Source of the DNA: Lingula anatina
Lineage: Eukaryota; Animalia; Brachiopoda
Length of the DNA stretch: 64,000 nucleotides
Direction: 5' to 3'
Assembly (NCBI GenBank): GCA_051362555.1
Contig: JBPQGU010000016.1
Coordinates: forward strand, 2,170,001-2,234,000
This document shows, in pieces, positions 15,393-56,632 of this stretch (within the stretch, counting starts at the first letter, position 1; each line of letters opens with the position of its first letter). Under the pieces are notes generated by a model, which saw only the letters and a program-made list of their open reading frames with translations, made no database searches and was not told the DNA's origin. The translations under genes and the position numbers were made by a program.

Positions 15393-15393
<1 letters not shown>

Positions 15394-15468
<75 letters not shown>
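15394..15468. repeat. (TA)n microsatellite
   Basis: Directly visible. Confidence 0.95.
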
Positions 15469-15470
<2 letters not shown>

Positions 15471-15489
15471 CGGAATAGGGGAACATTAC

Positions 15490-16179
15490 CGTTTCAGCAT
15501 CGGGAACTTTATACGGCACCGTTTCAACAGATTTTATCAGCTCTATCATCTCTTCTTGTTTCGTATCTCGGTCTTCCCGGTCACTGTTTTCTACACACCA
15601 TATTCGTTCGCCACATTCGTAATAAAGATTCAGAAATGGTTCTGGCGAATCGGTGATATATTCTCCGATGGAAGTGTATTCATGTTTTATGACATAAGCA
15701 AATGTAAAAAAATGATACTTTTCTTAGGGAAATTGTCTCCGAAAATCCCCCGTAACTGGTTTACTGCTTCTATTTGAGTATGTTTGATTCGGCCCATTTT
15801 AAACACAATCAATATAGAGTCCACTTGCTTCAGAGATCCAGCTTCCTTGTATATTCTGCGCAATATCTTATTGTCACTTTTGGACAGCGAGCCTAAACCA
15901 GGTGTGTCCATAAGATGGACAGTGCAAGAGCAAGGTTCGTTGAGCCTGAATTTCGTGTGTGCAATTTTGCCATCTTTTCCATTATACTCACGGTCATCGG
16001 ATAGTTTCTGTACAGTTTCAGATTTCCCTTGCCCCTTATAGCCAACGACTATTACGTTGTAGGTTTTAGTGGTCGCCCTGAAAAATGATTACACCATGAA
16101 TTATGAAAAACTGAACTATAAAAAAGCAGTAAAGAAAGTCAGAAAAATAAAATGAAAACCTTACTTACAGCAGAGACAT
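15490..16179 (-). pseudogene. AIG1/GIMAP-like GTPase gene 1 (spliced; 1-nt frameshift, either pseudogene or assembly error)
   Basis: Exon 1 at 16179-16169 (ATG TCT CTG CT|gtaagt). 91-nt intron ending tttttcag. Exon 2 at 16077-15490 reads ATTKTYNVIVVGYKGQGKS...LMDTPGLG...VDSILIVF. One extra T in the run at 15706-15712 restores IIFFTF...CGERIWCVENSD...YKVPDAET|gtaatg. Confidence 0.85.
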
Positions 16180-20605: not shown

Positions 20606-23600
20606 TGTATTTATTTGGAACTTAAAAAGTTGGATTTTATAATAAAAACAAATAGTGGTGAGATGCAAAAATGTACCTGTAAGTGTTTAAATGATTCGAT
20701 ACACATTAAAAGTTCATAGAAACCTCAGTTCTTAAAATTGATAAAGCCCATGGGATAAAGGTTTTTGACGATCGTACAGTCCCCAATTTTGACACAGTGT
20801 ACTTATAAACCAGGCGTAAATAGTCTAAAAGTGTAGGGACTTTCATTTATCTCTGGTAGCAAATGATGGATTTTATGTCCTTCAGAGTACATGTTATTTT
20901 TTTTATTTTTTTTTTTTTTTACAAAATTCACATATGTGAACTTCCCAGCTCAAATCACTACTGATCCTAACCCCTAAGAAGACAGCAGACCCCACTCTCT
21001 CAACTCTTTGATTATCTACTAGTAAGGGTGTATTTTTGTGTCCTTTATTGGAGAAATTAAATATGATCTCTTTAGTCTTGGTAGTATTTATTGTTAGTTT
21101 ATTAGCATGGGACCAGAGAATTAGTTCTGTTGTTGCATCAGGGAGATTGTCCTGCAGTTTGGTATTCCCGTAGCTTAGAATCGTGGTGTCATCTACATAT
21201 TTGAATGTGTCACATTTGGTGCTCAGATCTTTAATCATAAGGACAAATAAAACTGGACCAAGTTTTGTGCCTTGTGTTTCACCTGCATTAATGTGTTGCT
21301 AGTCTGATTTCACACTGCCTATCTTCACACTTTGTTTCCTCTCAGCTAGGAAGCTGTAAATCCAGTTTGAAATAATTCCTGGAAAACCTAATTCAGACAG
21401 TTTTTGATAAAGCAGGGCGTGGCCTATTCTATTCTATAGAATGCTTTAGTATAATCGACCAAAAACATTCTGGCATATTGTCCTAGAGTGTCAGTGTGCC
21501 TTGCAATACGGTCAAAAGCTTCTCTCAGTGCGTATGTCGTACAGCTCTCTTTTATGCTGCCGAACTGCATAAGGTCAAACTCATTGGTCACAATGTTACA
21601 AATCCATTTAACAATAAAACCCTCCAATAACTTAGAGAGCACCGCGGTGTCATGTACCAGAAGGTCCCCCATGACAGAAAGTACTAGGACCCCTGGTTTC
21701 TAAAATAACGGGTCTCGGACTCTGTACCATGGTAATTGGGTATAATATACAGGGTCCCCCGAACCCGGCATTTTACCGGACCCTACGTTGTTATGACAAC
21801 TATCACGAAACACCGAGTCCGCCCGTCATACAGAAAAACTGTATATCGCACAGGGTCGGAAAACTAGGGTCCTACTGTAGAACAGTAGATATTTAGTAAA
21901 AGCGCTTTATATTCACAATCTGGGCATAAAAGTATTATAATAAAGCAAACCTTTGATGCAAGTAAATATAATATAACAAACGGCGGTGGTTTGCACAGCG
22001 GCCTGGTGGTGTATTGGAGAGGGACACGGACGAAGAGCTTACTATTGAATGAAAATGACAGCCTACCAGACATTGGTTCGAGTCACACAATGGATTTGAA
22101 TTTCGTGTACCTACCATTTCTCATTCTTATTTTTCACTTATACTTAACTTAAAAGTAAAATGTTTAACTTATCGTAAACTCATTGTGTACCATGCCGCAG
22201 CAAAAATGTTTAAGACACACTGTTCATTACATTTCATGTTTTTTTTATTGGAGGTTTTTTACAGATATTGTATTGCCTTGTGATCGTTTGGACTAGGCCC
22301 ACCTATACGCGTGACTTATTTAACTATACCACTATAAATATGTGTAAGCTAGTCATACACAATGCAGCGATGCTTAGCTGTGCAAGACGTTTCTTTTCTT
22401 TAAACTATACGCGTGACTTACAATGACTACCACTCAAATGTGTGACAGCTTGCGTTATGCAGTGCATCAGTGTTAAGCTGTGCAAAATATGTTTTCTTTA
22501 AACGGACGGAATTCATTTATTATTAAAGTGTCATTGAATATATACTCATTTAATTTTGTTTTACAGTTTAAATAACTTATATATAAATTAAGTAAATGAC
22601 CTGTATATAAATGAATCAACCCAAAAGGAATGTGTTTCATGGTTCTCAAGGTATAAAATGGCTAGCTGCTCACGATGCCCTACACCGTCACCATAGATTT
22701 TCAAGCAATACGGCTTTATAAACAACATGGAGGGTGTACCATGAAAATTTGACTCCCCTAAGAGGTGATTCCCCATAATGAAAATCTGACTCCCCAGTCA
22801 AAGTTTCATGATGAAAATCAGACTACCCCAAGATAAATTTTGACCCCACCCCCACAAAACTCAAAAATTGTTATTTTATTTGAGTATAAGACTTTCATTT
22901 TGAAGTATGCATAATGGAGGGTATATTGACACTTTGTTAGTTTGCAGGTGCAATTTTTCATGAAAACAAAATTTTAGATACGTATTTTACCACCCAATGA
23001 CTCCCCTATGAAAAAGCTTTTCATTTGATATGTGGTGATCATTTCAACATATTTCCTTTTAGTATACTTTATGAATAATATATTGGAAATATTTGAAAGT
23101 TTGATGTTGAAATATTTGGATGGAAAGAATCAGGAGAAATATTCATTTTCATTCGAAACCAAGGGGAGTCAAAATCCCACGGGCACAAGAATGCAAAGTT
23201 ATTACCCTTTTTTCATTAAATTATCCCCACTTTTCATTTAGTTTTTAGGGTCCTAGGACTTTCCGTACTAAAATAGAGTGTCTAGGGGGACTCTACATTT
23301 CAGGACTTAAAGTCCGAGACCCGTTATTTCGAGACAGGGAGTCCGCCGGACTCTCAGATTTTAAAACACCGGGTCCGCCGGACCCTAGAGTGGTAGGACT
23401 CTGTGTTGCTTGACACCAGAGTTAGAGATATGGGTCTAATGTCTGTCTCTATGGTCTTTGGAGGAATGCACTTAGGTTGTGGTGACACATATGCATGTTT
23501 CCAGCGTGGTGGGACATATCCTTCACGAACTGAAGAGTTGAATATATCACGTACTGGGGCAGCTAGGTACCCTGCTAGGTCATGGAGGATCCAGTTGGGA

Positions 23601-23760
23601 ATTTCGTCGGGACCTGTGGACTGTGTACATTTACTTGGAGCAAGGTTTTTCGACATCTTGTTTTGAAATGATATATGTGCCTGGTAAAGGATCTGCTGCT
23701 TCCACATGTTTCGGTTCAAGAGGCACAAAGTAATTTGTGACAGACTGTATAAAACCGTTT
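20557..23760 (-). mobile_element. 5'-truncated CR1/L2-group LINE, split by an insertion at 21648-23415
   Basis: RT motifs GPDEIPNW, RPISLT, DYTKAF, QGTKLGP and KYVDDT. (ATT)n tail at 20557-20602. Confidence 0.88.
21648..23415. mobile_element. Ginger1-like TIR element (TGT...ACA, decayed CCGG target duplication) containing the 22735-23245 element
   Basis: Termini TGTCATG ... CTTGACA with flanks ccgcgg / ccag. Excision leaving CCGG restores the LINE peptide RPISLTPVLSK. Confidence 0.6.
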
Positions 23761-30015: not shown

Positions 30016-31406
30016 CGGATGTTAAGCCTCTCTTTTGGTCCTCAAATCAAATTCGGTCCCTTAGTTCTAAACTGTTTACTAGAAGCTCTGTTCTGGTCCT
30101 ACACCTGTCAATGTCCATTATGACGTCTTCAAACGTGTTCCCCAAACGTGTCCTTGGCTGACTCTGTTATGTTCTCTAATTTTTTAGATTTAAAACTTTT
30201 AGAGGCTACCAAAAAACGTATGTAAACTGAATGTTAGAAAGAAATACATTACAATTATTTAAATTCGTATTGTATTTGCTATAATATATTCTCACATTTT
30301 TAAAGAACACAAAAGGTCTGCTGGATGCTTATACTACAGTATTTATATGGCGTGCTCTGCATCAAGTGTTCAAGAAATTATAATTATTATATCGTGGGTG
30401 ATTGTAAGGGTGTGTGTGTGGGGGGGGGGGGGGGGCTTACTCACTGGCATGATGGTGCGTCTCAAACCTGTTAACTTCCCGACCCTTTAAAACACCGCTA
30501 CATATGTAGACACTCTAACCCAAAATATTACGTTCAATGTTTAAAAACTTTTAACAAAAATTGAAAATGTGAGCCACGCAAATTAAGTTTAATATCGGCA
30601 TATACATATATTACATGTTCCATTATTTTCTCTGGTTTATGTTATTGTACATGTACCCTCTAACAGGGAAAGCAGCCAACAATTATTAAAAGTAATATGA
30701 AACACTAATAAAAACGTTATGTAAAACGTGAGCGTCGGTAACGTGACTCAAACGTTCACTTTCTTGAGGAATCATTCCCCGGAGTGCAGTTGAGATAAGT
30801 TAATTTACGCTCTCATATCTTTCATATTAAAGAAATGAATATTTATTACAAGAGGTCAGGTTGGGAGGGGGAGCATAAGAGAATAGCGAATTATAAGCAA
30901 TATACCAGGAAATACCCTGCAATTTATCTATTTATCTTTTTCAATTCATGCCGAGAAGTATCACCTTACCCGTCGATTTCGCGGATTCTTCACATGGCCC
31001 TTTAAACTAATAAATATTGGTTTTTACTAACCCACACCCAACCCACCGAACGTAATATATTAGCATGATTCTGAATAAAAACTATATACCAAAGAAAATA
31101 ATTTAGAGGTCAAAAGAGAGACAGCCAAGGGCACGTTTCGGTATGACTATAAAAAACTTTAGGTTTGGCTGGACCTTTCTTCTGATATACTTTATCATGT
31201 TTCGTGATTATCTAGCTTGGTCGGTTCAGAAGATATATACCCCCCCTGCCCACACTTATTTCAACCTGAAAGATTGGTAAGTCAGTAGCACAGCACAAAA
31301 AGTCAATTTTCAGCTCTTTTACTCTTCAGGAAATGGGTCTGAATATTCTCTTTACAAGCCTTTTCAACGGTGTAAAGCTCTACCGGAAAGGTCAGGGTCT
31401 ACGGGT

Positions 31407-31670
31407 TTACTACCCTTTTATGCCTAAGCTTAAAATTGTAGTTGCACTATTACTACGTCTTTCCGATCAAGTATAGGCGTCTAAAAACAACCTCTTTACA
31501 ACTCCTTTCCGATCAATTATAGGCGATTTTTGACACGTCTTTATAACCCTTTTCCGATGAAGTAAATGCCATATGAGATACGTCATTATAACCCTTTTCC
31601 GATCAAATAAAGGCGATTTTAGGTAAGTCTTTACTACCCTTATCTAATCAAATATGGACGATTATAGTTA
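31407..31670. repeat. Diverged ~45-bp minisatellite, about 6 units
   Basis: Units of consensus TTAYWACCCTTTTCCGATCAA...GGCG start at ~31407, 31450, 31496, 31541, 31586 and 31631. Confidence 0.85.
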
Positions 31671-34600
31671 TTTCAATTACTTATAGCACTGATAATGTTT
31701 CAAATTCATGTAGCATTTCATTTAATGAGAGGAAGGCTTGTGAATTTTCAATTATAGTAATTTATTGCAAAAAACAACAATAACCGTTACAATACAGTGG
31801 GAATTATATTTATAAAGCGCAATACAGCTACTATATTTCACAAGTGGAAAGTAATCTTTCACTAATGTATTGTTTTGTACACTCATTATACACACACCCT
31901 AAACAATAGCGAATACCATTAAAAAATTTACCTAGTAAAATAATTACGCAAATAAATACGAACCACATTTAAATACGACTTTCCAGAACAAAATCTAAGC
32001 AAAAGTACAATTATAGGAACGTCACAGGTTCATAAGTAGTCAGGCTTCTTCCATTATTTATCTGACATCTGGTAAACATATGATGAAAACGAAAACGACT
32101 ACTACTTATCCATCGACTTAAAGTATTTGCAGAGAGTGGCCGCTCGTTAAATAACATGCCAATTATGTGTGCCCTAATTGCCCGACCCCGTTTTAAAAAT
32201 TACACTGATTAGGTATTTTTGTTCACATTGAGTAAGGCGATGAAGCCTAGCTTCCAAGGAAAGATAAAATATTGTCACCAAAACCCCTTCAAAATGCGTA
32301 GGCTAAAGAAATAAAATAACATTAAAAATATGGGAAAATTAAAAACAAGAGAAACGTAACACATTATGTACCTGAAATATCCGACTAACTTAAAGTATTT
32401 AATCAAAATCAAATAAATGCTGCTCAAATTCTAAGAGAAAAATGTGCTTTCAGAATAAATCTGTAGAAAATACAGCTATTTATTTCTTGAGGTGTGTGAA
32501 ACGTTCATCTTATTTAGCGTGATTCGTGAAGCACCCCATTCACGCGACTTGTGAATGCAATTGTTTATTCTCCGCCCTTCGTGAAACGAAGACATTTTAC
32601 CCGGTGATGCGTGATTTTCAGGATATTTTTAAAATGCCTACTATCAGTGAGATAATAATACACTGTAATTTGTGTATTGATAATTTATCTTCCCGCGTAC
32701 TGTGGTCATTCCCCTCCCCAATTGGACTTTCAAGACTGGGCCTGAATTAAAACATATCAGTTTACTTGGGATCACAGCAAAATAATACACAAATATATGT
32801 TCAAATATAAGAAGTACTGATCTCATTGTAATAACAATATATATAAAAACAGTAAGTAAAAATCAATCACCGTAAGGGAGATATATTAACATTTTTCATG
32901 TTGAATACTGTGATATTATCTAATCTACAACTGTGGACTCTAATCGTCCTTGCGTGTAAATTATTTTCCACACATCAAATCGCCCTTGCGTGTAAATTAT
33001 TTTCCACACATCAATTTGAGCACCCCTTTAGCCTGGCAGACCCCCGCGTCAGATATTTCTGACGTTGCCCCTTTCAACGTCTTCCCCTTGTTCAGTGCTG
33101 CTATCGCCCTTTCCTTTTTTCCAGTGCGGTGTCCTTCTTAACGGTTTCTGTAAAAATATAACGAAATGATATCAAAATATAATGTGTAATAACGTATTAA
33201 ACATAACTGGGTAAAGGGAACAGCATGTCTGACTAAAAAAAATTCAGAGAAAGTATCAGGATTGAGAATTACAAGAATGCATGTAGCCTACCACTATAAC
33301 AGACATGGAGAATGTAATAAAATCAAAGACTTGGTAGTTTATCAACACACATTGATAATCAATTATTAAAAATGAAAATAATGAATATTATGAAAACAAC
33401 AAAAGGAATAAAACCACTTACTGTTTTCATCCTCTCGTTTTTCCTGTACATTTACTTTGTACTCTGTCTCTGTGGCTATCTTCACACCACACCACATCCT
33501 CCCCTTTGTAGTTGCGATTTAATATTCGTTGTTTAGGGTTGGTCGGCTCATGTCTTAGTTAAACTAACTCTTATCAAAATAACACGATACAGGGCTGGTT
33601 CCCTGGGGACGTGTGTTTTGACAGCGCCCCTGGTTAAAAGCTTTGAGATTGCTTTTGGGACGTTAGAGTTAAGATTGAAGTATAAAAGTCCCTTAGATGC
33701 GTTATCACGTGTTTGTGAAGAGATGACAACGGTGATAGAACGTGTCCGTCTTATAATTCTGATTCGAATTATGTTAGATAACTATTTATTGTCGTATTCA
33801 ATGTTATCGGCTGTTGTTTCACTTCGGTATGATGTGAGAGAGGTGTCTCGCCTCTGTATGTGTTTGACCTGAAGGGCCGACTGTACGAGATAAACACAGT
33901 GCGGCTGGGGAAACGAAAAAAAAGGGAGGTTGGACTGGTTGCAGAAAGCGCTTTTTGGTCAACAAGTGACCTTCATCAGCTGCAGAGTCCTGAAAAAAAG
34001 AGGGGGGGGGGGCTGTGCTTAAACAAAGAAGTGAGAAACCAAAACACTTGGTTTAAGCCTTCATCACCGCGGTTGGAGAGAGGTTACATAAAAGGTTAAA
34101 TAGCTTATTGGCCACCATGCTGCTTGTTATACTGACCTCAGCTCATGAGTCATCTCTCGACCATCGTGTTTCAATGGTACTTCATGTGAAAACTGTGTTA
34201 ATTACTGGTAGCAGTCCCCATACAAATACAACCGAATCCGGCTGTCATCTAAAGCAGGCTAGTCCTTCTCTGTCAAAGCCCATAACTTATAAACAAAATA
34301 ACCGTTTTTGACTTGCGGCGATTTACTTATTTTCATGTGAAAAATGAATTTCTATGAAGAAATCAGTATATTGCGATAAGATACATTTTCATTAGCAGAA
34401 ACCGTGTAAAAGTGACACACGATGCACGTTTAATGTGCATTGATTCTTCACTTACGGGGTTTAACCGCCCCCTTCTCTTCGTCACCCACTATGAGCAAGA
34501 TATCATCATCAATAGAAAAGTACTCCTGTTATATACGTATTACGGCACATCATACTGATAATGTTTGCTATATATCAACATATTTATCGCTGCTTAACCT

Positions 34601-36218
34601 TGCAAAATAACAATGGTCTTATAGTTATTCAGTTTTTCAAGCAAGGTTTTTTATGGCAGCTAGTTTAGAACTAATGGTTTACTAATGGTTCTAGACATGG
34701 TCTATCGAGCGAAATCTTATCGTGGGATGTACTACGATCAGTTGTGGGGCAATACTTATTCATCAAATAAAAAAATTTTCTAATGCATCTCCAGTCAACA
34801 TTGGTATTAAAATATTTTTGTTTTCGTCTTTTAGCTGGATGAAATATTGAAGGTGGTCGTGACGTACACTGTTGTTAGTCGGGCTTTGTTGAAATTTCCC
34901 CGGCCACCAGCGTCTCGAGTGACACATCTTTATCCTTTTTTGTTTGTTCTCCGCTCAGTGTTGATTAAATATTAGAACGTTTAACGGTCACCCGCTGGTT
35001 CTTCCAACTCCCTTATTAATTAAAGATTGGTTGCACCACTGCACACGATGATTCAGTGCATAAGCACTACGTCCATCAGTGTAATAAACTTAAGATCTAT
35101 TTAAACTGCCGCAGGCTAAATCGCGATCGTCTAAGGAATCTTTATAAATACACCTTATTAATTGAAAAAATAAAAAAATTAAAAATACACTGACTGTGTA
35201 TCATGATTTCAGTGAAATGATTTTTACTCCGGAGACACCTTATTATAACGTATCCTATAAAATCCAGATTGTAAGCGCAAGTGTGATTAACGATTTCTAT
35301 AGTACTAGCGACAAGTTAAATGCCAGTCAGTTATTTTGCTGCAACCAGAGTTGCATTATTCAAGGCCGCGGCCAAACTTTTAATAATCAAACAGCATGGC
35401 TTTTGACCAAGTCTTATTCATTATAATTCATTGCAATTTTATGGAAATAATGATCATGCTTTAAATATAGACTTTGATATCGCTTCCAAGCAATCTATAT
35501 TAATTTAAAATGGTTTTTGAGACGACTGTGAATTGGACTGGATTTGATAGATCAAATACAACTTTTAGGGATAAATCAGCAAAGAGAAATGAAATGATGA
35601 ATATCAAAATATGATAAGCCCTCGGGGGAAGCTTCCTCAGGAGAGATGTTCTTTCGACAGTATATACATGTAGCGCACCTATGATAATAAAATGAAATTT
35701 TGAAAGGAATTAACAATATAAATCTTTCAGTTCCATTGAAATCTCATGTTCTTAAATGTCAGTCACAATCTAATAACGACCGTCACATAATACCAAGGCA
35801 GGACCCCTGCGGAAAAACGTTGTTCAGTCGCGAAGAAAGACGAACGAGATTACGCGTGTTGAAAGGCCGTGTAAAAGAGAAAGGGGTACTCCTGCGCGGA
35901 AAAACGTCATTCAGTCGCGCGTTGTAAAGGCCAGCTTGCACTGTTCCGACGTCATTCCGCGGGGGCTGAAAAATCGGAAAGATTTGTTTTTGTGCTGTGT
36001 AGTCTGGCTTAGGCAATAAAAACTCACTATCTCCACATCTGGTTTCTATCAAGCTCGTTCAAGAGCTTAGGACAAGCATATAGCTCCTCGTGCCAGGAAA
36101 TCAGGAGATGAGGAGTAGAGTGCAACATGTCTTCTTAATATGGAAATCTATATATTTTTGGTAATGTCCTTTCAAACATTAACAAACACTGTTAAATACT
36201 CTTTCTCGAATTAATATC

Positions 36219-36992: not shown

Positions 36993-37247
36993 CGGCGGGT
37001 TTTTGGAATGATATTATGCCTTAACACTATGTAACCCTTTGTGTCTTAGTACTTGTTTGTGGCTTTAAATTCTTGTTGGACATTATCTGCATTTTCATAT
37101 TAAAAAAAAACTTATTATTTTAATCATCAGTAAGATTATGTCGGTTATGTCCTGACATTAGTGAGGACAGTAGTTCCAGACACTGTGTTTTTCCTTGGGT
37201 ATTAACGAATTGTGAGAGATAAGTAATATTATGGGTATCTACTACAG

Positions 37248-38630
37248 GGCAAAGATGGTTACGAAGAAATACCGCCAGCTTATGCAAAGGGGGAGCACAC
37301 CAACATATTTGTCGTTGGGCAAACAGGAACTGGAAAGAGCTGTACGTGTAATATGATGGTGAACAAAGAAGGAGCTTTCAAAACAGGATTTGGCTCTAAA
37401 GGTGTTACGGACGACGTGTCATCTCACTGTGCCAACTTGGGTGGACGCAAGCTTCGCCTGATTGATACTCCCGGTCTTTTAGAAGCAGTTACGTATAGAC
37501 AGTTTGGATTTATGAAGAAGATCATGACGAAAAACATTAGTTTGCTCGGCGGCGAGGAAGGTATCGACGCGTTCTTGTTTGTCATTAACTGCAACGATAC
37601 GCCATCTCAAAATGAATTGAGCGCCTTAGTTAAGTTAATTTCGATGTTTTCGGAAGACATTTTTGAATATATGGTTGTTGTGGCTACTCACAAGGACGAA
37701 CTTGAGATGAACGAAAGGACAACAGAAAGTTTCAAAAGCAGTCTTCCCGGCAAAATGAAGACGATCCTTCAGAAGGCTGGTGGAAGGATAGTGTTTATCA
37801 ACAGTGTCACCAAAGACGGGAGAGAGCGTAGACACTACGTTAATTCTATCATCCGCCGTGTTGATGAGATTGCAAGAGCTCATCTAGGTAAGAAATTTTC
37901 CAATGAAGCCATCGAAAAAGCACGCAAGAAAAGACAAGAACTAGAAAAAAAATACCCTAACCTGAGTGAGACCGGTATACAAGAGGAATTAGAAAAGGTG
38001 ATCGAGCCATATTTAACATCAGAATACTGGTGTTTTGATGGCTCTTCCACTGTGCGTCTTAGCGATGGGTCAGTCACACCAATGGCCAAACTAACATCCG
38101 GTGACAGGGTGCTTTGTGTTAGGGATGATGGCTCCGTTGGCTTCGAGGAAATCTTCTGCTTCAGCCATGCAGATGAAAATTGTCAAACTATATATGTCCA
38201 CCTGCAGACCGCAACCGGGAAACACCTTCTCCTTTCTCACGGTCATTATATCCACGCTCTCTCAAATTCTACATCATTCCCATTTTCCATTAAAGCCGCC
38301 CGTGATATCCACGTTGGAGATGTGGTGTTCACTTATCACCCTGCCACCAACGCCATATTTGTGGATGAAATTGCGGCAACAGGCAGTAAGAAGGTCACCG
38401 GTGCCTTTTGTCCTCACACCATGAGCGGCACCATCATCGTCAATGATATTTTGGCGTCCTGTTACACCGACGCCGTAGAGCCCCTGGTGGCGAGAAAATT
38501 GCTTATGCCAGCCTGGTGTATGTACAAGTTGCTTCCGCTGCCTGTGTCTGCGCCCTTGTTGAAAGATGGCGTCTCAAATACCTGTAAACTTTTGTGCGCG
38601 ACGAAGCAATATTTAAAAAGTCTTTACTAG
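37248..38630 (+). CDS. AIG1/GIMAP-family GTPase fused to a Hedgehog-type Hint (Hog) autoprocessing domain; main coding exon, 460 codons
   Basis: Acceptor ctacag| at 37247 with an in-frame stop at 37224, so an upstream exon is needed. GTPase motifs: G1 GQTGTGKS, G2 SKGVT, G3 DTPG, GIDAFLFVI, G4 THKD, then FINS. A charged helical linker follows. Hint starts at Cys codon 38031 (CFDGSSTV...GDRVL...LLLSHGH...VGD...GAFCPHTMSGTIIVNDILASCY) and is followed by a ~54-aa tail. The frame is uninterrupted. Confidence 0.95.
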   Translation, partial: GKDGYEEIPPAYAKGEHTNIFVVGQTGTGKSCTCNMMVNKEGAFKTGFGSKGVTDDVSSHCANLGGRKLRLIDTPGLLEAVTYRQFGFMKKIMTKNISLLGGEEGIDAFLFVINCNDTPSQNELSALVKLISMFSEDIFEYMVVVATHKDELEMNERTTESFKSSLPGKMKTILQKAGGRIVFINSVTKDGRERRHYVNSIIRRVDEIARAHLGKKFSNEAIEKARKKRQELEKKYPNLSETGIQEELEKVIEPYLTSEYWCFDGSSTVRLSDGSVTPMAKLTSGDRVLCVRDDGSVGFEEIFCFSHADENCQTIYVHLQTATGKHLLLSHGHYIHALSNSTSFPFSIKAARDIHVGDVVFTYHPATNAIFVDEIAATGSKKVTGAFCPHTMSGTIIVNDILASCYTDAVEPLVARKLLMPAWCMYKLLPLPVSAPLLKDGVSNTCKLLCATKQYLKSLY

Positions 38631-41789: not shown

Positions 41790-42403
41790 CATGTGCCATC
41801 ACCGATTCGGTGTTTGACGAACGATGATATTCTGCCAAAGGGTTCTATTTCTCGCCCATGACCAAAGGTGTCTTGTTGGTAATTCAAAATTGTCAAGAAA
41901 GGATTTTCGATGTCTGCCTCGGGCACTTTTGCCAGGTATTCTTCCGCTCAGGCTAAGACCTTCTAATCCCTCTTTTCTGATGCAATGTCCTAAGAACTTC
42001 AATTGTCTTTCTCTGACAGTGTTGAGAAGCTGTCTTTTTTATCAATCTGTTTAAGGGCCTCTTCATTTGTAACATGCTCAATGTAGGAGATTCGGAGCAT
42101 TCGCCTGTAGAACCACATTTCAGCTGCTTCAATGTTACGTTGAGTTTCTGCTGTCAAAGTCCAAGACTCACAGCCATACAGAAGAGTAGACCAGACATAG
42201 GTTTTAAGGAGGCGATCCTTGAAGATTGGGCCGAGTCAGGTGAATGCATTTTTCGCTTGGCCAATTCTTCTTTGGATTTCTGTCTTGCAATAGGCGTAGG
42301 ATGTCACAAGTGCCCCGAGATAGTTGAATGAGGAGACCTGGTCGATGGGAGTGTTCCCATGAAGCAATGTGCAATGTGGTGTGACCTCTGACTTTGAAAC
42401 CAC

Positions 42404-42434
<31 letters not shown>

Positions 42435-44575
42435 ACATGTAGTCCAAGCTTTGTGCTGAAGGCAACAGCGGCATCAAAGAGATTATGGAGATCCTCCCTT
42501 GATGTAGCTAAAAGAACTCTATCATCGGCATAGCGGAGATTGTTTATCCTGACACCATTGACTGTAGACGATCCTCCAAATCTCTCAAGATCATTTCAGA
42601 GTATAAGTTCAAAAGGTCTGGAGACATGACACAGCCCTGACACACTCCTCTTTTGATGGGAAACCAGTTGGCCATGCCTTCAGGAAGGCGGACTGATGCA
42701 AGCTGATCACAGTAGACTAATCTTATAACCCGCATGTCTTTGTCATCGATTTGAATTTTTGCAAGCATTTTGAAGAGCTCCTCATGTCGGATCTTGTCAA
42801 AGGCTTTCTGATAGTCAATGAAGACCATGTACAGGTCTTATTGATGTTGTAAGGTTCTCTTGCTGAGCATTCTGAGAACAAATATGGCATTTCTGGTGCC
42901 TCTGTCTTTCATGAAACCAAACTGGTAGGGTGGAATTTCTGGCAGAATTTTGCGTCTAATTCTTTGTAAGATGATTTTCAATAGGATTTTGAGAATGTGG
43001 GGCATCAGGCTTATTGTGGGATGACTTGAACAATCAAGTGTCCCTGGGACTTTGGGTAGAGTGATGAAGATGGATTTGAGTATGTCCTTTGGAAACTTTC
43101 CAGTCTCATAGATTTCACTGACTAGACTCCAAATCATATCAGTACCTTCTTTTCCAAAAGCTTTGAGCATCTCTGTGTATACCTCATCTGGTCCAGCTGC
43201 CTTTCCGACTTTTATATTTCCCAGTGCCCACTTCACCTCTGACTTTAGAATTGGTGGACCGGTTTTTGCAGTTTCCAGAACAATGCCCTCTGATTCTTGG
43301 TCGTCATCGAAGAGATCTTGAATGTATTCTTCCCAGCGAGCTGGGATATCTTTAAATTCCTGTAAGACATGACCATCGGCAGCTTTAATGCATTTGGAAG
43401 GAGGGGAAGATCGTTTACCTACTATCTGGTTGATCTTTTGAAACATTTTCTTGGCATTGAAACTAAGGTTCTCAACTTCTTGGCATTTTTCCTCTAACCA
43501 AACTTCTTTTGATTTGCGGCGTTTCTTGATGTATTCTTGGTTTATTTGTTTGTATTGCACAGGGTTGTATTTGCAGATTCTTCTTTTCTGTGAGAGATCT
43601 TTGAGTTCAGAACTGAACCAGTAGGATGATGGTTTCTTGGCTTCCATTTTGGGAATGTTGTTCTCAGCTGCCTCTTGAATAGTTTGCGTGATTTGGTGGT
43701 AGTGTTTTTCTATATTATTGTTTTTCTTATATTGGCAGACTTTTTAGAACTTCCCTTTAAAATTTGTTGCATATCTCTGGGTCACGTTGCATGGCTGTGA
43801 AGTCGAACTTTGGTTTGACTTTGGATTTTTGGATGCGCTTGAGTGATAATTTGAATTTGGCTATCACTGGATTGTGATCTGAAACAACATCTGCTCCTGG
43901 GAATGCATGGGAATTCTTAATAGCATTTTGGGATCTTGAATTGATTGCAATAAAGTCAATCTGATTCCTGGCTTGGTCACCAGGACTGATCCATGTGTAG
44001 CGTATTCTTGGATGTACTTTGAACCAGATATTGGTGATGAATAGGTTCTTATCTCTGCACCAGTCTACAAATCGGTCCCCCTGTTCATTCCTTTCACCTA
44101 AACCAAACTGTCCCTTTGTCTTTCCGTCACCTCCCTCACCTACATTGGCGTTGAAATCGCCCATAACTATATTGATATCATCAGACTTGCAGGAAGACAT
44201 CAATTCATAGAGAGATTGGTAAAAATCATTGATCTCAAAGGACTAGCTTTAAGTTTAACTAGCATCATTCGGTCGTTTTTGGGCCAAAAAGAAAGAACCG
44301 AGTTGGCAAAGCTCTTGTTAAGAATCAAAGCAACGCCATGAACATGTTGGTTCCATCCAGAAAAGAGAATACGTTTCCTGTCTTTTGTAAAATCACCCGA
44401 CTTAGGCCACCGTATCTCGCACAAACCTAAACAATGGATGTTCATTCTGTCCATTTCTACAAGGACATTGTCCAGTGTCCCTGTTTAATACAGTGTTCTG
44501 ACGTTCCATGTACCGATCTATTTGAACTACAGTTGGCTGTTAATTCCAAAATGGGCTTGGGGTTAGTCGACGACT
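41790..44575 (-). mobile_element. Near full-length degenerate RTE-clade LINE (APE endonuclease + RT)
   Basis: Motifs GTWNVRT, LCEIRW, VMGDFNA, QIDFI, SDHNPV, GKAAGPD, FIDYQKAFD, GVCQGC, LRYADD and GKSARGR. Multiple frameshifts. Confidence 0.93.
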
Positions 44576-45632: not shown

Positions 45633-48600
45633 ATGCGGCAAAATAAGTTGAAAAGTAAAACAAGTGTATTTAAATAATAATTGTTATTATTATTATTATT
45701 TGTTGTTGTAATTAGAATATTTATAAGTATTTATCATTGTTTGTTTCATTTAGAGAACAGTAGTGTATAAGTTTTGAGATTATATTACCAGTGACCCATT
45801 GTTACGGGTCAATTATTTTTGAGAGTAATGAGCAGATCATACTGGGCTGGAGACCACTCGTGATTTAGCAGCAGATGCGCATGGGGGCTAGCCCATCGTA
45901 TGATTTTGTCACAGATACGCATGGGGCAAGCCCACCGTATATGTATACATTTTTTTATTTGAACAACAGGATTATCTCCAAGTTTATGTAGCTGAAATTC
46001 GAGTAAGTTATTATTATTTTATTATTTATTTGTTCATTATACATGTAGTATCATAAATTATGCGTTTACTTTGCTCATGTTCACCATTAATTGTACTCCA
46101 TTATCATGTTAGTATTATCATTTTTATTTTTATTCATTGCGTTTATTTTTATTATTTTTTTAGTTTCACCATTTGTCTTATGTATGATGTGATGATGTGA
46201 AATAAAAGCTACTGAGATAGGAATCCTGAGTTGTTCAACAGTGAAATCGAATGCAGAGTCCCTGTCGGTGATATTCGAATACCGAGTCCTACCCAGTGAG
46301 CCACCTGTCTGTGTCTTTGTGTCCAACGCCTGGTCCCCTCTTCGTGTTACAGAGGAGGGTGAACGTTCCACCGCGCCGACAATATGAGTGAACCAGAGAA
46401 AATGGAGGATCTACGCCGGGCGAGAAGAGCGCGTAAGGGCGTGGTCACTAGATGTATTGGGGCAGTGGAAAGAGCCGTAGCTGAGGAGGACTCTAAACTA
46501 GTAGGGAGTAAGCTAGATAAGCTTAAAGACACTTTCTCGTCTTTTGGATCATTTCATGACCAATTTCATAGTTTACTTGTTGATGATGAAGTAGAATCAA
46601 GCGAAGCATGGTTTCGCGAAGTAAAAAACAATTTTATTGAATTCAATTCAATTCAATTTATTTCTGTACTAGTACATAGATTGTCATTACCTTGTACAAT
46701 ATGATATACTGATGACGATGTAATACAATCAGTGCATTACCATTTCTCTAGTTGGTATTATGTTGCCTAGCCATTTGTGAATGAAAAAATAATCTTTATA
46801 TAATGAACATAATACTACTAAATTACTCATAAAATAGTCTATGCAATGAGATATTCTAAGCAATGAGATAAATCTTGGTGTGATTATAAATTTACCATAA
46901 ACACACTGTAAACATGTTACACAAAGGGATATGTTTAAACTTAAAACCACAGTTACATATCTGCTTACATGGCTGTTTAAAGCCAGTTTGATGACAAAGA
47001 TAATTACGATTAATGACAATTACATAAGACAGATACTCATAGGTAAATACGTTACACAGATATAAATATTGTGCCATGTTCAGTCCCACTGCCGAGTCAC
47101 TTCTCACAACAGTGGGACCATACACTGACATATGCTAGGAGTTACCAAGCAGAGCAACCATTTCACTTCTTTTCTTGAATGATTTGATTTGAAGTTGGAG
47201 AGGGACACATCTTTGTTGGCACTGTTAAATACACGACATAATTGACTGTCTGGTGACCTTGTATCAGCTTTAAGGATTGAGGTTTTACTAAAAAATGTGA
47301 CTCGGTCTGCTTTGTACATTGGGCATTGGAATATAAAATGGTATTCATGTTCAATTACCTCTTGGGTGCACAGGTGACAGATTCTGTCGCACCTGGTGTG
47401 CCGCCCAGTTTCGATGTGGAGTTTATGGTCACTGAGACGTAGTTTAGCAAGGGTTCACAAGGTGTCGTAATTTGTTATTTTATCAACATAAGTTGCCCTT
47501 TCACACTTTTGGTTAAGTATACGGAAGAGAGACAATTTACTGTTGGCTTGAAGTTTCCTATTGCATATTTGGGAAAAGTGGTCATTTTGTCTTTGTTTGA
47601 AAATTGTGATGAAGTTTTTTGGAGGTGACTGGCTAAGCCACACATCTCCAAGGCCAAATTTTGAAAAGGATTTTTCGGATCCCCTCAGACTATGACATAT
47701 AAGCTGGTCTGAGTGTGTGGACTGCGGGAGGAACATAGGGTGTCAGCTTGTAACTATTTATCTCTTGTATGTATGCTTGCTTCATTAGTGTATCATCAGA
47801 CATTTGAATTATTTTACACCATAGTTTGACAGATGCAAACTGTATTTTGGTATAGAGGGGAAGGCGGCCAAGTTCAGTGTATACACCATAGTTTGATACA
47901 TTTTGATGGAGGCCAAGGATTTGTTCGCAAAATGTTAAGTGTAACTTTTCTGTAGGGCAGTTATCCATTGACACAGAGTAGCCCCATATCTCTGAGCAAT
48001 ATGTAAGGATTGGGGAAATGAGGGTATCAAATAATTTCTCTTTTAAGGATGTGTTAACATTACTCTGAAGCGGAAGAGACTTGGACAGACTGAAGATTGC
48101 CTTTGTAGCACGTTGGAGGAGATTACTTTGGGTTTCGATTTAGAAGGAGACCTAGATACATGTATTTGTTGACCTCTTGGATTGGTTTTCCATAGAGAAA
48201 AAAATTTCACTGTGGGATTTTGATTTTGAGTTGAAAATAACTATTTTAGTTTTGGTGACATTTACAGTCAGTCTCCACTTGTTACAGAAATTTTCTACAA
48301 TTTCCAAACTTTGCCTTAGCCCCTTGGGGGTCTTGGACATAAGGATGAGGTCATCAGCATAGAGTAAACCTTGTATTGGTATTCCATTTATATCTGGACT
48401 TGCAGCACTTTCGCCATCAATTGATCTAAGAAGGTCATCAATAAAAATATTAAAAAGAAGTGGGCTCAATATGTCACCTTGTTTTACACCTAGTCTTGTA
48501 TTAAAGGCCGGGGATTTACCACTACTTGTCTTAACACATGCTTGGGAGTTTTCGTACATGCTCTTAATGTTTTTGTACATAAGCCCTCTTATTCCTAGAG

Positions 48601-49530
48601 TACTTAGCTTGAACAGTAGTCCATTGCTCCAAACACTATCGAATGCTTTTGAGAAGTCAATGGAACATGTGTATAATTTTTCTTTCCTTTTATACATTTT
48701 GTAATAATGGACTTAAGTATAAAGATGTTATCTGAAGTACCATGACCATGTTTAAACCCAGTTTGATGAGGTAGGGGTACCCCTTGTTGTGATGCGTGTT
48801 CAACAGGACCGAGTTGTACAGCTTTCCGAGGCAGCTTGTAATAGATATTCCCCTGTAGTTGTTAACATTTGATTCGTCACCAGATTTGTGGATAGGGACT
48901 ACATGTATATATGCCTTGTTCCATATTGATGGGTACTTAGCACTTTTGAATATGATATTGAACAATTTTACAATTACATCTATAAGATAATCCTTCCCTG
49001 ATTTTATCATTTCGTTTGTTACCTTGTCTTCCCCTGTTGATTTGCCATTTTTCAATTTTTTGATATTGTTCATGATCTCATCAGCACTAATGTCATGGTC
49101 AAGTGCAGTTCTGTCTGAAGAATTCATTTCACTTTGCCTTAGTTTATTTTCTATTTTAAGCTTGAAATCTTTATCAAAGTTATGTTTACTTGATTCAGTT
49201 TCCTCACAAAGACTTTTAAAATACTCATAAAATTCACTTGGTTCAATAAATTCAGTTTGTGTAGACTCCATATTTAAATCTTTAACCGCTTTCCAGAATA
49301 TTTGGGATTTGCATTTTCCATGGATTGCAACTTTTGAAGAAGGCCTTTTTTATATTCTTTTTTTTTTTTTTTTTGCTTTCTTACATCCTTTCTTATAACG
49401 ATTGAATGTTTGGTAATATGATGCATTGACTGAATTGTCAAAGGATTTCTTGCTCCTAAGTTTTGCTAAGTTTTTTAAGTGGGACCTCAGGGATTTTAAG
49501 TCATTGCTGTACCATGTTGCCCTTTTCTTG

Positions 49531-49561
<31 letters not shown>

Positions 49562-51155
49562 TGGACTGAGGTGTATTTTCTTGATTTAAGAGCCTTTTCA
49601 GCTGCAGTTGTGAATATTTAATTTACTAAGGGTAATGCCTCTTCAGGGGAGAGAGCTTGTGACATAAAGTAATCAACCTTTTGTTTTGTTTCCATGTTAC
49701 CCAGGGCCTCGACAAATTTAATATGAGAATCATTTTCCCAAATGAATTTAGTTGGCTTTGGCATCAGCTGAATTGATTTTGTATGTATGTTGTAAGTAGT
49801 TTTGCAGTACAGTTCAAGTTCAAGTAGGGCGTGGTCAGAAAATATTGACAGATCATTGACGTGAAAGTTTGGGATGCTGCTGTACAAAGTGGCGCTACAG
49901 ATGACGTGATCAACAACGCTGTTACCAGCTGGTTGTTAACAAGTATATTTGCCAAGTAGATCACCTAGTTTACGGCCATTTAAAATTCTTATATTGCAGT
50001 CTTTGCATAAGTCTAGCCTCCTATCTTACCAAAGAATCACCCTGTGTCCCGTTTGATTATTCAAGATTGTCACAATGATGTGCATTTGCGATGTGAGTGG
50101 ACATTGAGTCGAGTTCGGAAGAAATATTGGATAGTGGGTGCGAGGAATTCGATAAAGCATGTTGCACGGATGTGTGTAGTTTGCAAGCGATTATATGCGC
50201 CGACAATTGGCCAAAGAATTGCTGATTTGCCACCAGAACGTTGTCAAGCAGGAGGTCCCCCTTTTGATATAGTGGGAATTGATCTCTTTGGTACCCTTAT
50301 GGTCAAGGTTGGTCGATCTCAAGTAAAACGCTATGGTTATGTTTTTACTTGTTTTAAGACTCGGGCAATTCACCTTGAAGTTTTAGAAAGTCTAGAGACG
50401 GGCACATTTCTCAACGGATTTATTCGTTTTGTTTCTAGACGAGGGTGTCCAAGTAAAATATTTAGTGACAATGGTACAAATTTAGTGGGTGCTGCAGCTG
50501 AAATCTCACGTTGTTTGAGTCAGATTGACAAAAACAAAATTGTGTATCATGCCAGAAGCAAGGGAATAGAGTGGGTTTTTAATCCTCCTTATGCATCCCA
50601 TTTCGGTGGTGTGTGGGATAGAATGGTGAGAACTATCAGAAAAATTCTGATGAGTTTGGGGTCGTCAAGATCAATGTACGACTGGTCTTTACAAACTCTT
50701 CTATGTGAAGTTGAGTGTATTGTGAATGGACGTCCCATAACCAAAGTCAGTGAAAGTGTTCAGGATTTAGATGCTCTCACACCCAATCACTTACTCGCAT
50801 TGAGAGCTGTACCGTCACTTCCTTAGGGAAAGTTTGACACGGCTGATACGTACAGAAGGTTATGGAAGCATATCCAAGTCATTACGACTTAGTTTTGGAA
50901 AAGATGGTCCAGCGAGTATCTTGTATTGCTTCAGAGCCGTTCAAAGTGGCATAAAATTTGAGAGAATTTAAAACCGGGCGATCTAGTTCTTATGGTAGAT
51001 CAAGACTTGCCGTGTGGCTATTGGCCCTTAGCTATCGTGGAATCAACCAAAACTAGTCGCGACGGTCTATAGAGTGCCACCGTACGCACACGCAGCGGTA
51101 AATACATTAGACCAGTTAATAAGTTGTATATTAAAGAAGGAGACTTATAATTGTC

Positions 51156-51186
<31 letters not shown>

Positions 51187-51810
51187 AGACGAGTGTTGCC
51201 GACCCATGCGGCAAAATAAGTTGAAAAGTAAAACAAGTGTATTTAAATAATAATATTAATTATTATTATTATTATTTGTAATTAGGATATTTATCAGTAT
51301 TTATCATTGTTTGTTTCATTTTGAGAACAGTAGTGTATAAGTTTTGATATTATATTACCAGTGACCCATTGTTACGGGTCAATTATTTTTGAGAGTAATG
51401 AGCAGATCATACTGGGCTGGAGACCACTCGTGATTAAGCAGCAGATGCGCGATGGGGCTAGCCCATCGTATGATTTTGTCACAGATACGCATGGGGGCAA
51501 GCCCATCGTATATGTATACATTTTTTTTTATTTGAACAACAGGATTATCTCCAAGTTTATGTAGCTGAAATTCGAGTAAGTTATTATTATTTTATTATTT
51601 ATTTGTTCATTATAGTATCATAAATTATGCGTTTACTTTGCTCATGTTCACCATTAATTTTACTCCATTATCATGTTAGTATTATCATTTTTATTTTTAT
51701 TCATTGCGTTTATTTTCATTATTTTTTTTTTAGTTTCACCATTTGTCTTATGTATGATGTGATGATTTGAAATAAAGGCTACTGAGATAGGAATCCTGAG
51801 TTGTTCAACA
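45633..51810 (+). mobile_element. BEL/Pao LTR retrotransposon, internally deleted and LINE-interrupted
   Basis: Near-identical ~610-bp LTRs at 45633-46240 and 51194-51810 (TGTTG...CAACA). Gag N-terminus at 46384-46640. Integrase at 50017-51150 (DLFG, FTC..TRAIHLE, SDNGTN, GGVWDRMVR, LTPNHLL, GDLVL, RPVNKL). Confidence 0.93.
46636..50016 (-). mobile_element. LINE (RTE-X/L2-like) nested in the BEL element
   Basis: APE end (RILNGR, SDHA), RT (NYRGIS, IDFSKAFD, GVKQGD, LLYADD), ELGRLPL, C-terminal Cys motif. 3' AATAAA plus (TTGAA)n tail at ~46636-46662. Confidence 0.92.
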
Positions 51811-54800: not shown

Positions 54801-55017
54801 AGTGCATATAGTGACACACAAGTATGTAACAGTGTTGATGACAAGTATGATAAAAATAATGGGTCTGCAGTGTGAACTACAGGTATAAGTTGGCCTATGG
54901 ACCAGTGCCTGAATAAATGTATATACAGTGACAGTTGTGTTTGTCTGAGAAACTGTGAGAAACTATTAAGAAGCTGTGAGAAGTTAGATAAAATCACAGG
55001 TAGCTTTAACGAACAGA

Positions 55018-55620
55018 ATGGCGGGTCAAAAGATGGAGGAAACCAGCGTTGTATGCCACAGCCTGCAAAACTACAACGTGTTCATAGTGGGGTACAAGGG
55101 ACACGGCAAGTCAGCCACTATGATGAACATTATACGAGAAGTAAATTATAAGGGAGCCGCAGGTTACAAAATAGAGGAGAGAACACACGGGAAATGTACA
55201 TTCTATGATACCCCGGGTTTCGGCTCACTGGACACAACCGACCCGAAATTGTTGCGCGTGATAAACGCAAAAGCCCATGCGGTCGGTGAAGTGCACGCTG
55301 TGTTATTCGTGCTGCGTTATTGGCGCATCACAAGTTCCGTGATTACTTTAATACACCAACTTAAGGACGCTTTCGGTTCAGACTACCACAGACGCACCAT
55401 CGTAGTCTTCACTTTTTCAAAGAATGAAACCGTAATGAGGTTAAGAGACTATTTGGAAGACGGTGCGTTGGAATTTAAGGAATTTGTCAATTTTTGTGAG
55501 GACAGAGTGATCATGTTGGAGAATTCTGACTTCCAGACTGGGGAATCTGCTGCCTCCCAAATTGAGGACATGATAACCAACAGTATGCACTCAGAGCCGT
55601 TGGTAGTCCCATGGTCTACA
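55018..55620 (+). CDS. AIG1/GIMAP-like GTPase gene 3 (main exon; ORF reads through to a stop at 55674)
   Basis: YNVFIVGYKGHGKS, FYDTPGFG, VHAVLFVL, RRTIVVFTF, CEDRVIMLENSD. Donor ACA|gtaagt at 55620/55621 lies at the same position as the donor in gene 1. Confidence 0.88.
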
Positions 55621-56632
55621 GTAAGTAACCTAGCTTTCTATAGTCACTTTCTTATATGTTTATCGTTAAGATAAATAGAAAAGTAAGAATGGTTATGTGT
55701 GAAAAACAGATTGAAGAATGCATAAGTGAAAAATATGTAAATAAATGAATACACTCAGCTTTGTGTGTTTGTGCGTGTTTGTGCGTGTATCTGTTTTTGT
55801 GTAAGAGAGAAAAAAGAAATGCTTTTGGGTGAGTGGCCGTATGAATAAAACGAATTAATACAATATGGCGAATTGTACATTTTACAGCTGCTTTCATTTG
55901 TATTTGAGAATAAAGGTAAATGCTTATAAAAATCAAAGTATTTGCAATTTAAAATATATTCATATTTTATTGTTTTTATTGCTCTGTTTCGTTCCAATGT
56001 AGGGTGTATTTGTGGGCTTGTCTGGACCTCATGGTGTTCGTGATTTCCAGTGTATGGCAGGGCCTGTGTTACCTGCACATAAAAGAATTAATTATTCAGA
56101 AAATAAAACAACAGTCCATATATTTCACATTGTATATTTAATCATATGAATGAAACCGTATTTCTTTAACATTGCTTTAGATCTACTACTTCAACAATTA
56201 TTGGACACAAATGGGCACCAATCGCACACACCACCTTTAAATCAATCAAAAATATGTTTTACAATGCATAATCATTTCTTTATTAGTTCTTTAAATAAGG
56301 GGATTATTTGATAATATAGCAATCAATACAAATCTTCATACTGGAAAATACTTATAACCAATAACTTAAAGAAATACAGCAGTGGAAGCGATTTTTATGT
56401 AGTCCGATAAAGTATACTAAACAAAAATATAAACGCACGAAAGTATATGTTGATTTATTTTCATGTATGGAACTAGAGTATATGGCCAACATTAACAGCA
56501 TATTTTCCTCAACAAATAGACATCACTTTGAGAGCATTACAGGAAGTTTAAATGCATAGTCCAAGAGTTAGGGCATCAACTACACCATGGGGGTCAACAT
56601 CCTGAGTTCACATCAGACACTAATAACAAGTA

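What the first reader, a model, noticed from the sequence alone, without database searches (positions are those of the whole stretch)
38022..38630. Non-canonical Hog active site suggests chemistry other than Hedgehog cholesterolysis
Seen versus the Hedgehog consensus: the junction is EYW|CF rather than GG|CF. Block B is SxxH (LSHGH) rather than TxxH. The position of the Asp needed for cholesterol transfer reads FSHAD (His, as in many non-Hedgehog Hog proteins). YAPLT is FCPHT. The terminal ASCY Cys is kept and there is no intein-type His-Asn. The tail retains the first SRR-like helix (VARKLLMPAWCMYKLL), but GIHWY aligns by eye to GVSNT. Inference: the N-S shift is probably retained, with a different acceptor (non-cholesterol lipid, water or protein) or slower, regulated cleavage because of the bulky Trp at -1.
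Basis: partly seen in the sequence, partly recalled or inferred. Interest (0 to 1): 0.7.

Follow-up and report, generated by a model that had tools for sequence, protein, structure and literature searches.

The report
GIMAP GTPase fused to Hedgehog-type domain
This stretch is the Hedgehog-type tail of an immunity-family (GIMAP) GTPase; its supposedly odd catalytic residues are common in such tails, which likely cut themselves off and probably leave a sterol anchor on the GTPase, and two close paralogues also carry a predicted pore-former-like front end that is broken in this copy.

Summary
The motifs are real and correctly placed, but mostly not unusual. 38022-38630 is the Hog (Hint plus tail) end of a 467-codon open frame whose first half is an AIG1/GIMAP GTPase. 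The model fits Hedgehog D46H (6TYY) at 1.4 A. Among 45 AIG1-Hog relatives, His46 is in 45, SxxH in 36, Gly(-1) in 6, Trp(-1) in 4 and HWY in none. His46 also occurs in 7 of 26 published Hedgehogs, and the engineered swap stays active. Only the missing HWY argues for another acceptor. Two Lingula paralogues (65-70%) keep all these motifs, so they are not decay. The fusion is in print (GmGIN1, coral, snail, amphioxus). New here: those paralogues carry a stonustoxin/MACPF-like N-terminus. In this window it is a broken exon 20 kb upstream, and RNA support is almost nil. Most likely the family self-cleaves and sterol-anchors the GTPase (0.5); this copy may be truncated or dead.

The parts
37227..38630 (+). 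Stop-to-stop open frame, 467 codons: AIG1/GIMAP GTPase, helical linker and Hog domain in one exon. It has no in-frame ATG before the P-loop, so it needs an upstream exon; a phase-0 AG at 37246-37247 is the likely acceptor (inferred).
   Evidence: 65% and 70% identical to two Lingula anatina proteins
37302..37949 (+). AIG1/GIMAP GTPase domain (residues 26-241) with intact P-loop GQTGTGKS (37317), DTPG (37464) and THKD (37686)
   Evidence: Pfam AIG1 E 2.9e-38; best Foldseek match is human GIMAP7, E 1.5e-16; motif coordinates
37950..38030 (+). Helical linker ending in Trp(-1); predicted new C-terminus after cleavage. No transmembrane helix.
   Evidence: model helix H248-264; the sequence is charged, not hydrophobic
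38031..38465 (+). Hint domain: Cys1 (38031), His46 (38166), Ser69 (38235), His72 (38244), FCPHT (38406), Cys144 (38460)
38466..38630 (+). Adduct-recognition-type tail: Pro-kinked first helix, a short helix, then a predicted amphipathic last helix that starts at GVSNT and lacks HWY; then the stop codon
   Evidence: helices 419-425, 427-435, 438-446 and 449-466, pLDDT 64-90; P428 nearly invariant; best 19-residue hydropathy 1.04, so no transmembrane helix
17231..17575 (+). Broken relic of the family's first coding exon (start of the MACPF/stonustoxin-like domain), followed by a GT donor; two frame shifts and one stop. Whether it belongs to this gene or to a dead neighbour is not shown.
   Evidence: tblastn E 2e-22 and 4e-27 with P0002 and P0167; break counts; donor seen

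Best explanation
The stretch is the C-terminal Hog domain of a GIMAP/AIG1 GTPase fusion protein, with the common His-type Hog active site; it likely cuts the chain between Trp268 and Cys269 and probably esterifies a membrane sterol to the freed GTPase, which would give it a lipid anchor. Shown: the fusion, the fold, the position of each catalytic residue and their conservation in paralogues. Inferred from Hedgehog chemistry: Cys1 makes the thioester, helped by Ser69 and His72; it moves to Cys144; His46 acts as the base for the incoming hydroxyl; the amphipathic tail brings the domain to a membrane. The protein is probably cytosolic. The anchor would do the job of the C-terminal membrane segment of GIMAP1/3/5, letting GTP-driven oligomers form on membranes. 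In the intact paralogues it would also tether a MACPF-like N-terminal domain. This window's copy has lost most of that N-terminal part and is either a shortened gene or a recently silenced one.
For: Domain calls and fold. Catalytic set in 45 AIG1-Hog relatives: Cys1 43, His46 45, S/T69 45, His72 45, Cys144 41. His46 and Cys144 matter for the transfer step, not only the first shift (PMC9163320 section 9; PMC12054796 abstract and Discussion), so their retention fits a transfer reaction. D46H is active and takes more sterols. Seven of 26 Hedgehog-labelled rows have His there (by-eye count). The tail keeps the Pro-kinked first helix and a second helix. Selection: the 42 differences from P0002 avoid family-conserved Hog columns (4 of 55 conserved versus 38 of 115 others, Fisher p 2e-4). 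110 of 145 Hint columns are identical in all three paralogues, against 110 of 217 in the GTPase. The exon has 0 breaks over about 1390 nt against 3 in the 345-nt relic (p about 0.008 by hand if decay were equal). A crude scan found a hydrophobic N-terminus in 2 of 46 relatives, and no snail AIG has a signal peptide. GIMAP1/3/5 use C-terminal anchors (PMC8201404 passages).
Against: No activity was measured, and my 10 paper searches returned no acceptor for any AIG1-Hog protein. HWY is absent here and in 45 of 45 relatives, whereas 24 of 26 Hedgehog rows have it (by-eye count). In SHH, H433A and Y435A abolish cholesterolysis. The window protein and P0002 also lack the family's G[MI]PxW replacement. 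Hedgehog processing happens in the ER, not the cytosol. Two of 45 relatives have no Cys in the Cys1 column, one of them an alignment gap, and four lack Cys144. For this copy: the first exon is broken, the counterpart of P0002 residues 114-368 is not found in the window, and there is no ATG before the P-loop. Of three RNA runs (6-25% of each read), two gave no depth over the frame and one gave 0.26-0.5 in two of three bins. The relatives were picked by similarity to the query, which inflates motif sharing.
Confidence: 0.5

Rival explanations
1. The Hog domain cleaves but transfers to water or a non-sterol nucleophile, simply releasing the GTPase.
For: HWY is missing in the window protein and in 45 of 45 relatives. 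SHH lacking the second helix cleaves without cholesterol transfer. All 22 nematode Hh-related rows also lack HWY (by-eye count), and their acceptor is stated to be unclear (PMC2362128).
Against: His46 and Cys144 are kept in 45 and 41 of 45 relatives, and a helical tail is kept; plain hydrolysis would not need them all.
Confidence: 0.3
2. This particular copy is a non-functional fragment: a duplicated last exon or a recently dead gene. This rival concerns the locus and is compatible with either chemistry for the family.
For: Broken first exon, missing middle part, no start codon before the P-loop, and almost no RNA reads. Lineage-specific changes are slightly more numerous than in P0002 (61 versus 49).
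Against: The 467-codon frame has no break. The 61 versus 49 excess is not significant (p 0.29). Pfam scores are as high as P0002's (Hint 108 versus 104 bits, AIG1 132 versus 124). The relic exon is further from the paralogues (60-66%) than they are from each other (83%), whereas the last exon is about equidistant (66-72%).
Confidence: 0.3
3. The thioester is held as a latent reactive group and couples the GTPase (and MACPF-like domain) covalently to a protein or pathogen surface after a trigger.
For: Immune-type partners: AIG1, CARD in 5 of 48 proteins scanned, MACPF-like N-termini. The SHH sterol motif is lost.
Against: No direct evidence. The likely cytosolic location, with abundant thiols (general knowledge), disfavours a long-lived thioester. 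The -1 residue is not conserved.
Confidence: 0.1
4. The domain splices like an intein, as suggested for coral AIG1-Hint proteins (PMC3723955).
For: Hint fold and intein matches in Foldseek; Cys144 is equivalent to the intein C+1.
Against: The residue before Cys144 is Ser in 52 of 52 aligned Hog domains, never Asn or Gln, so the final cyclisation step is missing.
Confidence: 0.03

Closest known systems
GmGIN1 of Glomus mosseae and the glomeromycete AIG1+Hint (MEROPS C46) expansion
   Same: AIG1 GTPase followed by a Hog domain, no signal peptide, His at position 46 (PMC2362128 passages and Additional file 14; PMC8778642). The best Atlas cluster has this architecture, score 0.93.
   Different: GmGIN1 has Gly(-1), TxxH and an HPY tail; the window protein has Trp, SxxH and no HxY.
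Animal AIG1-Hint proteins noted in Acropora, Biomphalaria and amphioxus
   Same: Same two-domain core. Named relatives found here come from a brachiopod, gastropods, bivalves, a sea cucumber and amphioxus.
   Different: The passages read report domain labels only, with no active-site analysis or assay. The amphioxus paper calls the CARD/HINT architectures unique to amphioxus among animals, which a sea cucumber CARD-AIG1-Hint (P0009, P0053) contradicts. No MACPF-like N-terminus is mentioned in the passages read.
Lingula anatina XP_013384271.1 (P0002) and LOC106179620 (P0167), uncharacterised
   Same: 65% and 70% identity; W|CF, His46, SxGH, FCPHT, ASCY and G[VL]S tail shared; one clade at 100/100.
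   Different: They carry about 370-390 extra N-terminal residues, which in this window are broken or missing.
Hedgehog autoprocessing domain (1AT0) and its D46H variant (6TYY)
   Same: Same fold (rmsd 1.4-1.5 A), with Cys1, His72 and Cys143/144; His46 as in 6TYY.
   Different: No Hedge signalling domain, no Gly(-1), Ser for Thr69, no HWY; probably not secreted.
Stonustoxin (4WVM) MACPF-like domain, for the N-terminus of the intact paralogues
   Same: A profile of 5 relatives matches chains A and B over about 290 positions at E 2e-9 and 6e-9; P0036 alone gives E 7.7e-6.
   Different: Distant. A broader 11-sequence profile missed it at E 0.001, and Pfam MACPF stays below its cut-off. The domain is fused to a GTPase and Hog rather than to the toxin's other domains. 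Pore formation is untested.

Membership tests
Hog domain (Hint + SRR/ARR; Pfam PF01079) | Hint fold | tested here: met
   Pfam 108 bits against a cut-off of 29.7; TM 0.94-0.95 by target length to 6TYY and 1AT0
Hog domain (Hint + SRR/ARR; Pfam PF01079) | Cys1, block-B [TS]xxH, acid/His at 46, terminal SC[YF] | tested here: met
Hog domain (Hint + SRR/ARR; Pfam PF01079) | Helical adduct-recognition tail after the Hint | tested here: met
   Pfam match runs to model position 208 of 213; helices predicted, pLDDT 64-90
Hog domain (Hint + SRR/ARR; Pfam PF01079) | Autoproteolysis at Cys1 | not testable with these tools
   needs an assay
Hedgehog proper | N-terminal Hedge signalling domain with signal peptide | tested here: not met
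   the upstream domain is AIG1 and Pfam finds no Hedge domain
Hedgehog proper | HWY motif in the second SRR helix | tested here: not met
   GVSNT in that column
Hedgehog proper | Cholesterol ligation | not testable with these tools
   needs an assay
Intein | C-terminal (His)-Asn/Gln before the +1 nucleophile | tested here: not met
   ASCY; Ser precedes the Cys
GIN1-like AIG1-Hog fusion proteins | AIG1 GTPase N-terminal to a Hog domain in one reading frame | tested here: met
   a 462-base contig of DNA run X1 spans the junction with 1 other letter, but X1 may be the source of the window
GIN1-like AIG1-Hog fusion proteins | Intact GTP-binding motifs | tested here: met
   GxxGxGKS, DTPG and THKD present
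GIN1-like AIG1-Hog fusion proteins | Expressed, complete gene | tested here: inconclusive
   5' coding exon not identified and near-zero RNA depth
Stonustoxin-like MACPF (N-terminus of paralogues) | Sequence match to the MACPF/CDC domain | tested here: inconclusive
   met with the 5-sequence profile and P0036; missed with the 11-sequence profile; Pfam below cut-off
Stonustoxin-like MACPF (N-terminus of paralogues) | MACPF fold with membrane-inserting hairpins | not tested

The most novel reading that the evidence does not exclude
Invertebrates have a widespread family of intracellular immune effectors built as [MACPF-like pore-former or CARD]-GIMAP GTPase-Hog. The Hog domain clips itself off and attaches a sterol in the cytosol, so that a GTP-controlled pore-former or death-signalling scaffold anchors itself on membranes. 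This would be a cytosolic protein-sterol modification outside Hedgehog signalling, with a tail motif other than HWY.
Probability: 0.3. Interest if true: 0.8.

Novelty: new variant of a known kind. Interest (0 to 1): 0.42.

Why it matters
As posed, the finding is ordinary: the His/Ser-type site is the majority state of the Hog domains examined, and Hedgehog's Asp/Thr/Gly set is the narrower case. What matters is the family. What non-Hedgehog Hog domains attach has been open since at least 2008 (PMC2362128). AIG1-Hog proteins are single-chain, probably cytosolic, and give a direct mass-spectrometry test of that question. If the MACPF-like N-terminus holds up, it adds a self-lipidating, GTPase-gated pore-former architecture to invertebrate immunity. 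Two searches for that combination found no description: one search returned one paper whose read section does not describe it, and one search returned none.

Tried and rejected
No genome is held for the window. The search for homologous proteins with the window protein was blank twice: the close relatives are longer than its length window. The metagenome scan gave 52 pattern matches and no relative. The single-sequence fold of the Hog part was useless (pLDDT 37). Pfam found nothing at E 0.001 in 69 of 69 upstream + strand frames of 48 aa or more, so no CARD or death exon was found. Searches for the counterpart of P0002 residues 114-368 gave only noise (one search tested only the first 90 residues of that part of P0167). 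No RNA holder was listed. dN/dS could not be computed, because no DNA of the paralogues was on hand, and allelic variation over the Hint was not measured. The 11-sequence profile did not find stonustoxin. Zhao 2019 (PMC7106946) and a DOI recalled for a GIN1-related fungal GTPase paper were not held. PMC3417536 (passages) added nothing. Rejected readings: intein splicing (no Asn), a transmembrane tail (hydropathy at most 1.04), and Trp(-1) as a conserved regulatory device (the position is variable). No complex prediction was run, as no binding is claimed.

Full report
What is there. The finding's coordinates are the last 203 codons of a 467-codon stop-to-stop frame, 37227-38630 (+). Pfam gives AIG1 (residues 26-241, E 2.9e-38) and Hint (266-460, E 5.7e-31). 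The sequence is real: 7 public DNA runs from 2 studies hold it or part of it, one of which may be the source of the window. Alignment to solved Hedgehog domains puts His on D46, Ser on T69, His on H72 and Cys on C143. A model from a 49-sequence alignment has mean pLDDT 89. Its best matches are human GIMAP7 for the front half and Hedgehog D46H (6TYY, 1.4 A) and wild type (1AT0, 1.5 A) for the Hint.

Are the residues unusual? Relatives came from one HMMER search of 1.84 billion representatives; the best 150 of 7106 hits were listed. In these plus the query, 52 Hog domains were aligned, leaving out three near-identical cluster members. Dropping the query and six rows without AIG1 (one of them a true Sonic hedgehog) leaves 45 AIG1-Hog relatives. 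Of these 45: His46 45, His72 45, Ser69 36 and Thr69 9, Cys1 43, Cys144 41, PHT 11, HWY 0. The -1 residue takes 14 values among the 43 with Cys1, with Gly in 6 and Trp in 4. This set is ranked by likeness to the query, so I checked published alignments, counting by eye. In Additional file 14 of PMC2362128 (35 mostly non-animal rows, read whole): His in 30 of 30 rows with a letter there, SxxH in 12 of 30, non-Gly at -1 in 18 of 24, none aromatic. In Additional file 1 (50 animal rows, read whole): His in 22 of 22 nematode Hh-related rows and in 7 of 26 rows labelled hedgehog (two sea urchins, Capitella, Trichinella, a Nematostella gene, zebrafish dhh, fugu fhh); SxxH in 2 of those 26; Tyr at -1 in four wrt rows. 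The engineered D46H enzyme keeps its activity and accepts more sterols (review PMC9163320, passages and section 9; the primary paper was not held). So His46, Ser69, PHT and a non-Gly junction do not point to other chemistry.

What does differ. HWY is in 24 of 26 Hedgehog rows and is needed for SHH cholesterolysis; loss of the second helix leaves cleavage without transfer (PMC7242414, passages). It is absent from the window protein and from all 45 relatives. Of the 52 aligned tails, a pattern count gave 27 G-x-P-x-[WLIV], 5 [VI]PxW, 6 HxY-type and 14 other, the last group including the window protein and P0002. A second helix is still predicted there (449-466, pLDDT 64-76, hydrophobic moment 0.36).

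Decay? The two closest proteins are from the brachiopod Lingula anatina (65% and 70%). They share W|CF, His46, SxGH, FCPHT and ASCY. The three form one clade, 100/100, on a long branch; Trp(-1) occurs in three other places in the tree, once with a Leu sister. Differences from P0002 avoid conserved Hog columns (4 of 55 versus 38 of 115, p 2e-4), and the Hint is better kept than the GTPase. The host species of the window was not determined.

The rest of the gene. P0002 and P0167 have about 370-390 more N-terminal residues. P0002's N-terminus matches a profile built without it from seven other relatives (E 1.7e-12); 10 of the 45 relatives have this domain. A profile of five of these proteins matches stonustoxin alpha and beta at E 2e-9 and 6e-9 over about 290 positions, and P0036 alone at 7.7e-6. 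An 11-sequence profile missed it, and Pfam MACPF is below cut-off, E 0.0015 and 0.0046 in 2 of 6 proteins. I therefore call it MACPF-like, predicted. Five of 48 proteins scanned have CARD instead. In the window, 17231-17575 matches the first 113-123 residues of the paralogues but has two frame shifts and a stop. The middle part was not found, while the last exon has no break. Three breaks all falling in the short exon has p about 0.008 if both decayed alike (computed by hand), so the GTPase-Hog exon has probably stayed under selection longer. But it has no ATG before the P-loop. RNA depth over it was zero in two of three runs and at most 0.5 in the third, with 6-25% of each run read and no listed joint near the frame. 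Whether this copy is alive is open.

How it likely works. By analogy with Hedgehog (PMC13738340 passages; PMC12054796 abstract and Discussion): an N-S shift at Trp268-Cys269, transfer to Cys412, then attack by a hydroxyl activated by His314. The product would be a GTPase with a C-terminal ester. Vertebrate GIMAP1/3/5 are anchored by C-terminal hydrophobic segments, and membrane-bound GIMAPs are proposed to form GTP-dependent scaffolds (PMC8201404 passages). The released fragment here has no such segment, so a lipid adduct would supply one. All chemical steps are inferred. I put sterol anchoring at 0.5, cleavage with another nucleophile at 0.3, a latent cross-linking thioester at 0.1 and splicing at 0.03.

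What is known. AIG1+Hint is described for GmGIN1 (PMC2362128 passages), glomeromycetes (PMC8778642 passages), Acropora (PMC3723955 passage and Additional file 4), Biomphalaria (PMC7053062 passages) and amphioxus (PMC12373286 section 10). An earlier unchecked note of this scan reports it in a diatom. None of my 10 paper searches returned a biochemical test of such a protein or the MACPF-like architecture. The library lacks most subscription papers, including the original GmGIN1 paper, and supplements of the snail and amphioxus papers were not read, so either could be in print.

Verdict. Observation confirmed, interpretation partly supported. The active site is ordinary for a Hog domain. The protein belongs to a known but, as far as my searches show, untested GTPase-Hog family, in a variant with a predicted pore-former-like N-terminus that is broken in this copy. 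Interest 0.42.

Noticed in passing
window 15379-16088 (-): A second AIG1 GTPase gene piece in two reading frames (Pfam AIG1 E 4.2e-13 and 5.4e-4); probably frame-shifted, with an acceptor-like AG near 16078. No Hog match follows it in the tblastn.
   Followed up: partly
window 54988-55671 (+): A third AIG1 GTPase frame with an ATG at about 55019 (Pfam E 1.7e-20). The window thus holds a loose cluster of three divergent AIG1 genes.
   Followed up: partly
P0167 versus P0001 and P0002, Hint residues 269-413: P0167 has no unique change in the Hint (0, against 14 and 16 for the other two) but 22 in the GTPase; this suggests gene conversion or mosaicism among paralogues.
   Followed up: no
PMC2362128 Additional file 1: Several natural Hedgehogs (sea urchin, Capitella, zebrafish dhh, fugu fhh) have His at the general-base position, so the engineered D46H state exists in nature.
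   Followed up: no
P0009, P0053 (Apostichopus japonicus): CARD-AIG1-Hint proteins occur in a sea cucumber, so the architecture is not confined to amphioxus among animals.
   Followed up: partly
window 4777-6860 (-), 20906-23758 (-), 42239-44484 (-), 47107-49935 (-), 46363-50823 (+): Fragmented frames that look by eye like LTR and LINE retroelement relics, and a 94.6% direct repeat at 45633-46240 / 51206-51810 that may be an LTR pair; not scanned against Pfam.
   Followed up: no
window 31284-35999: A contig of DNA run X1 skips these 4.7 kb, and depth inside is repeat-like: possibly a polymorphic mobile-element insertion just upstream of the GTPase-Hog exon.
   Followed up: no
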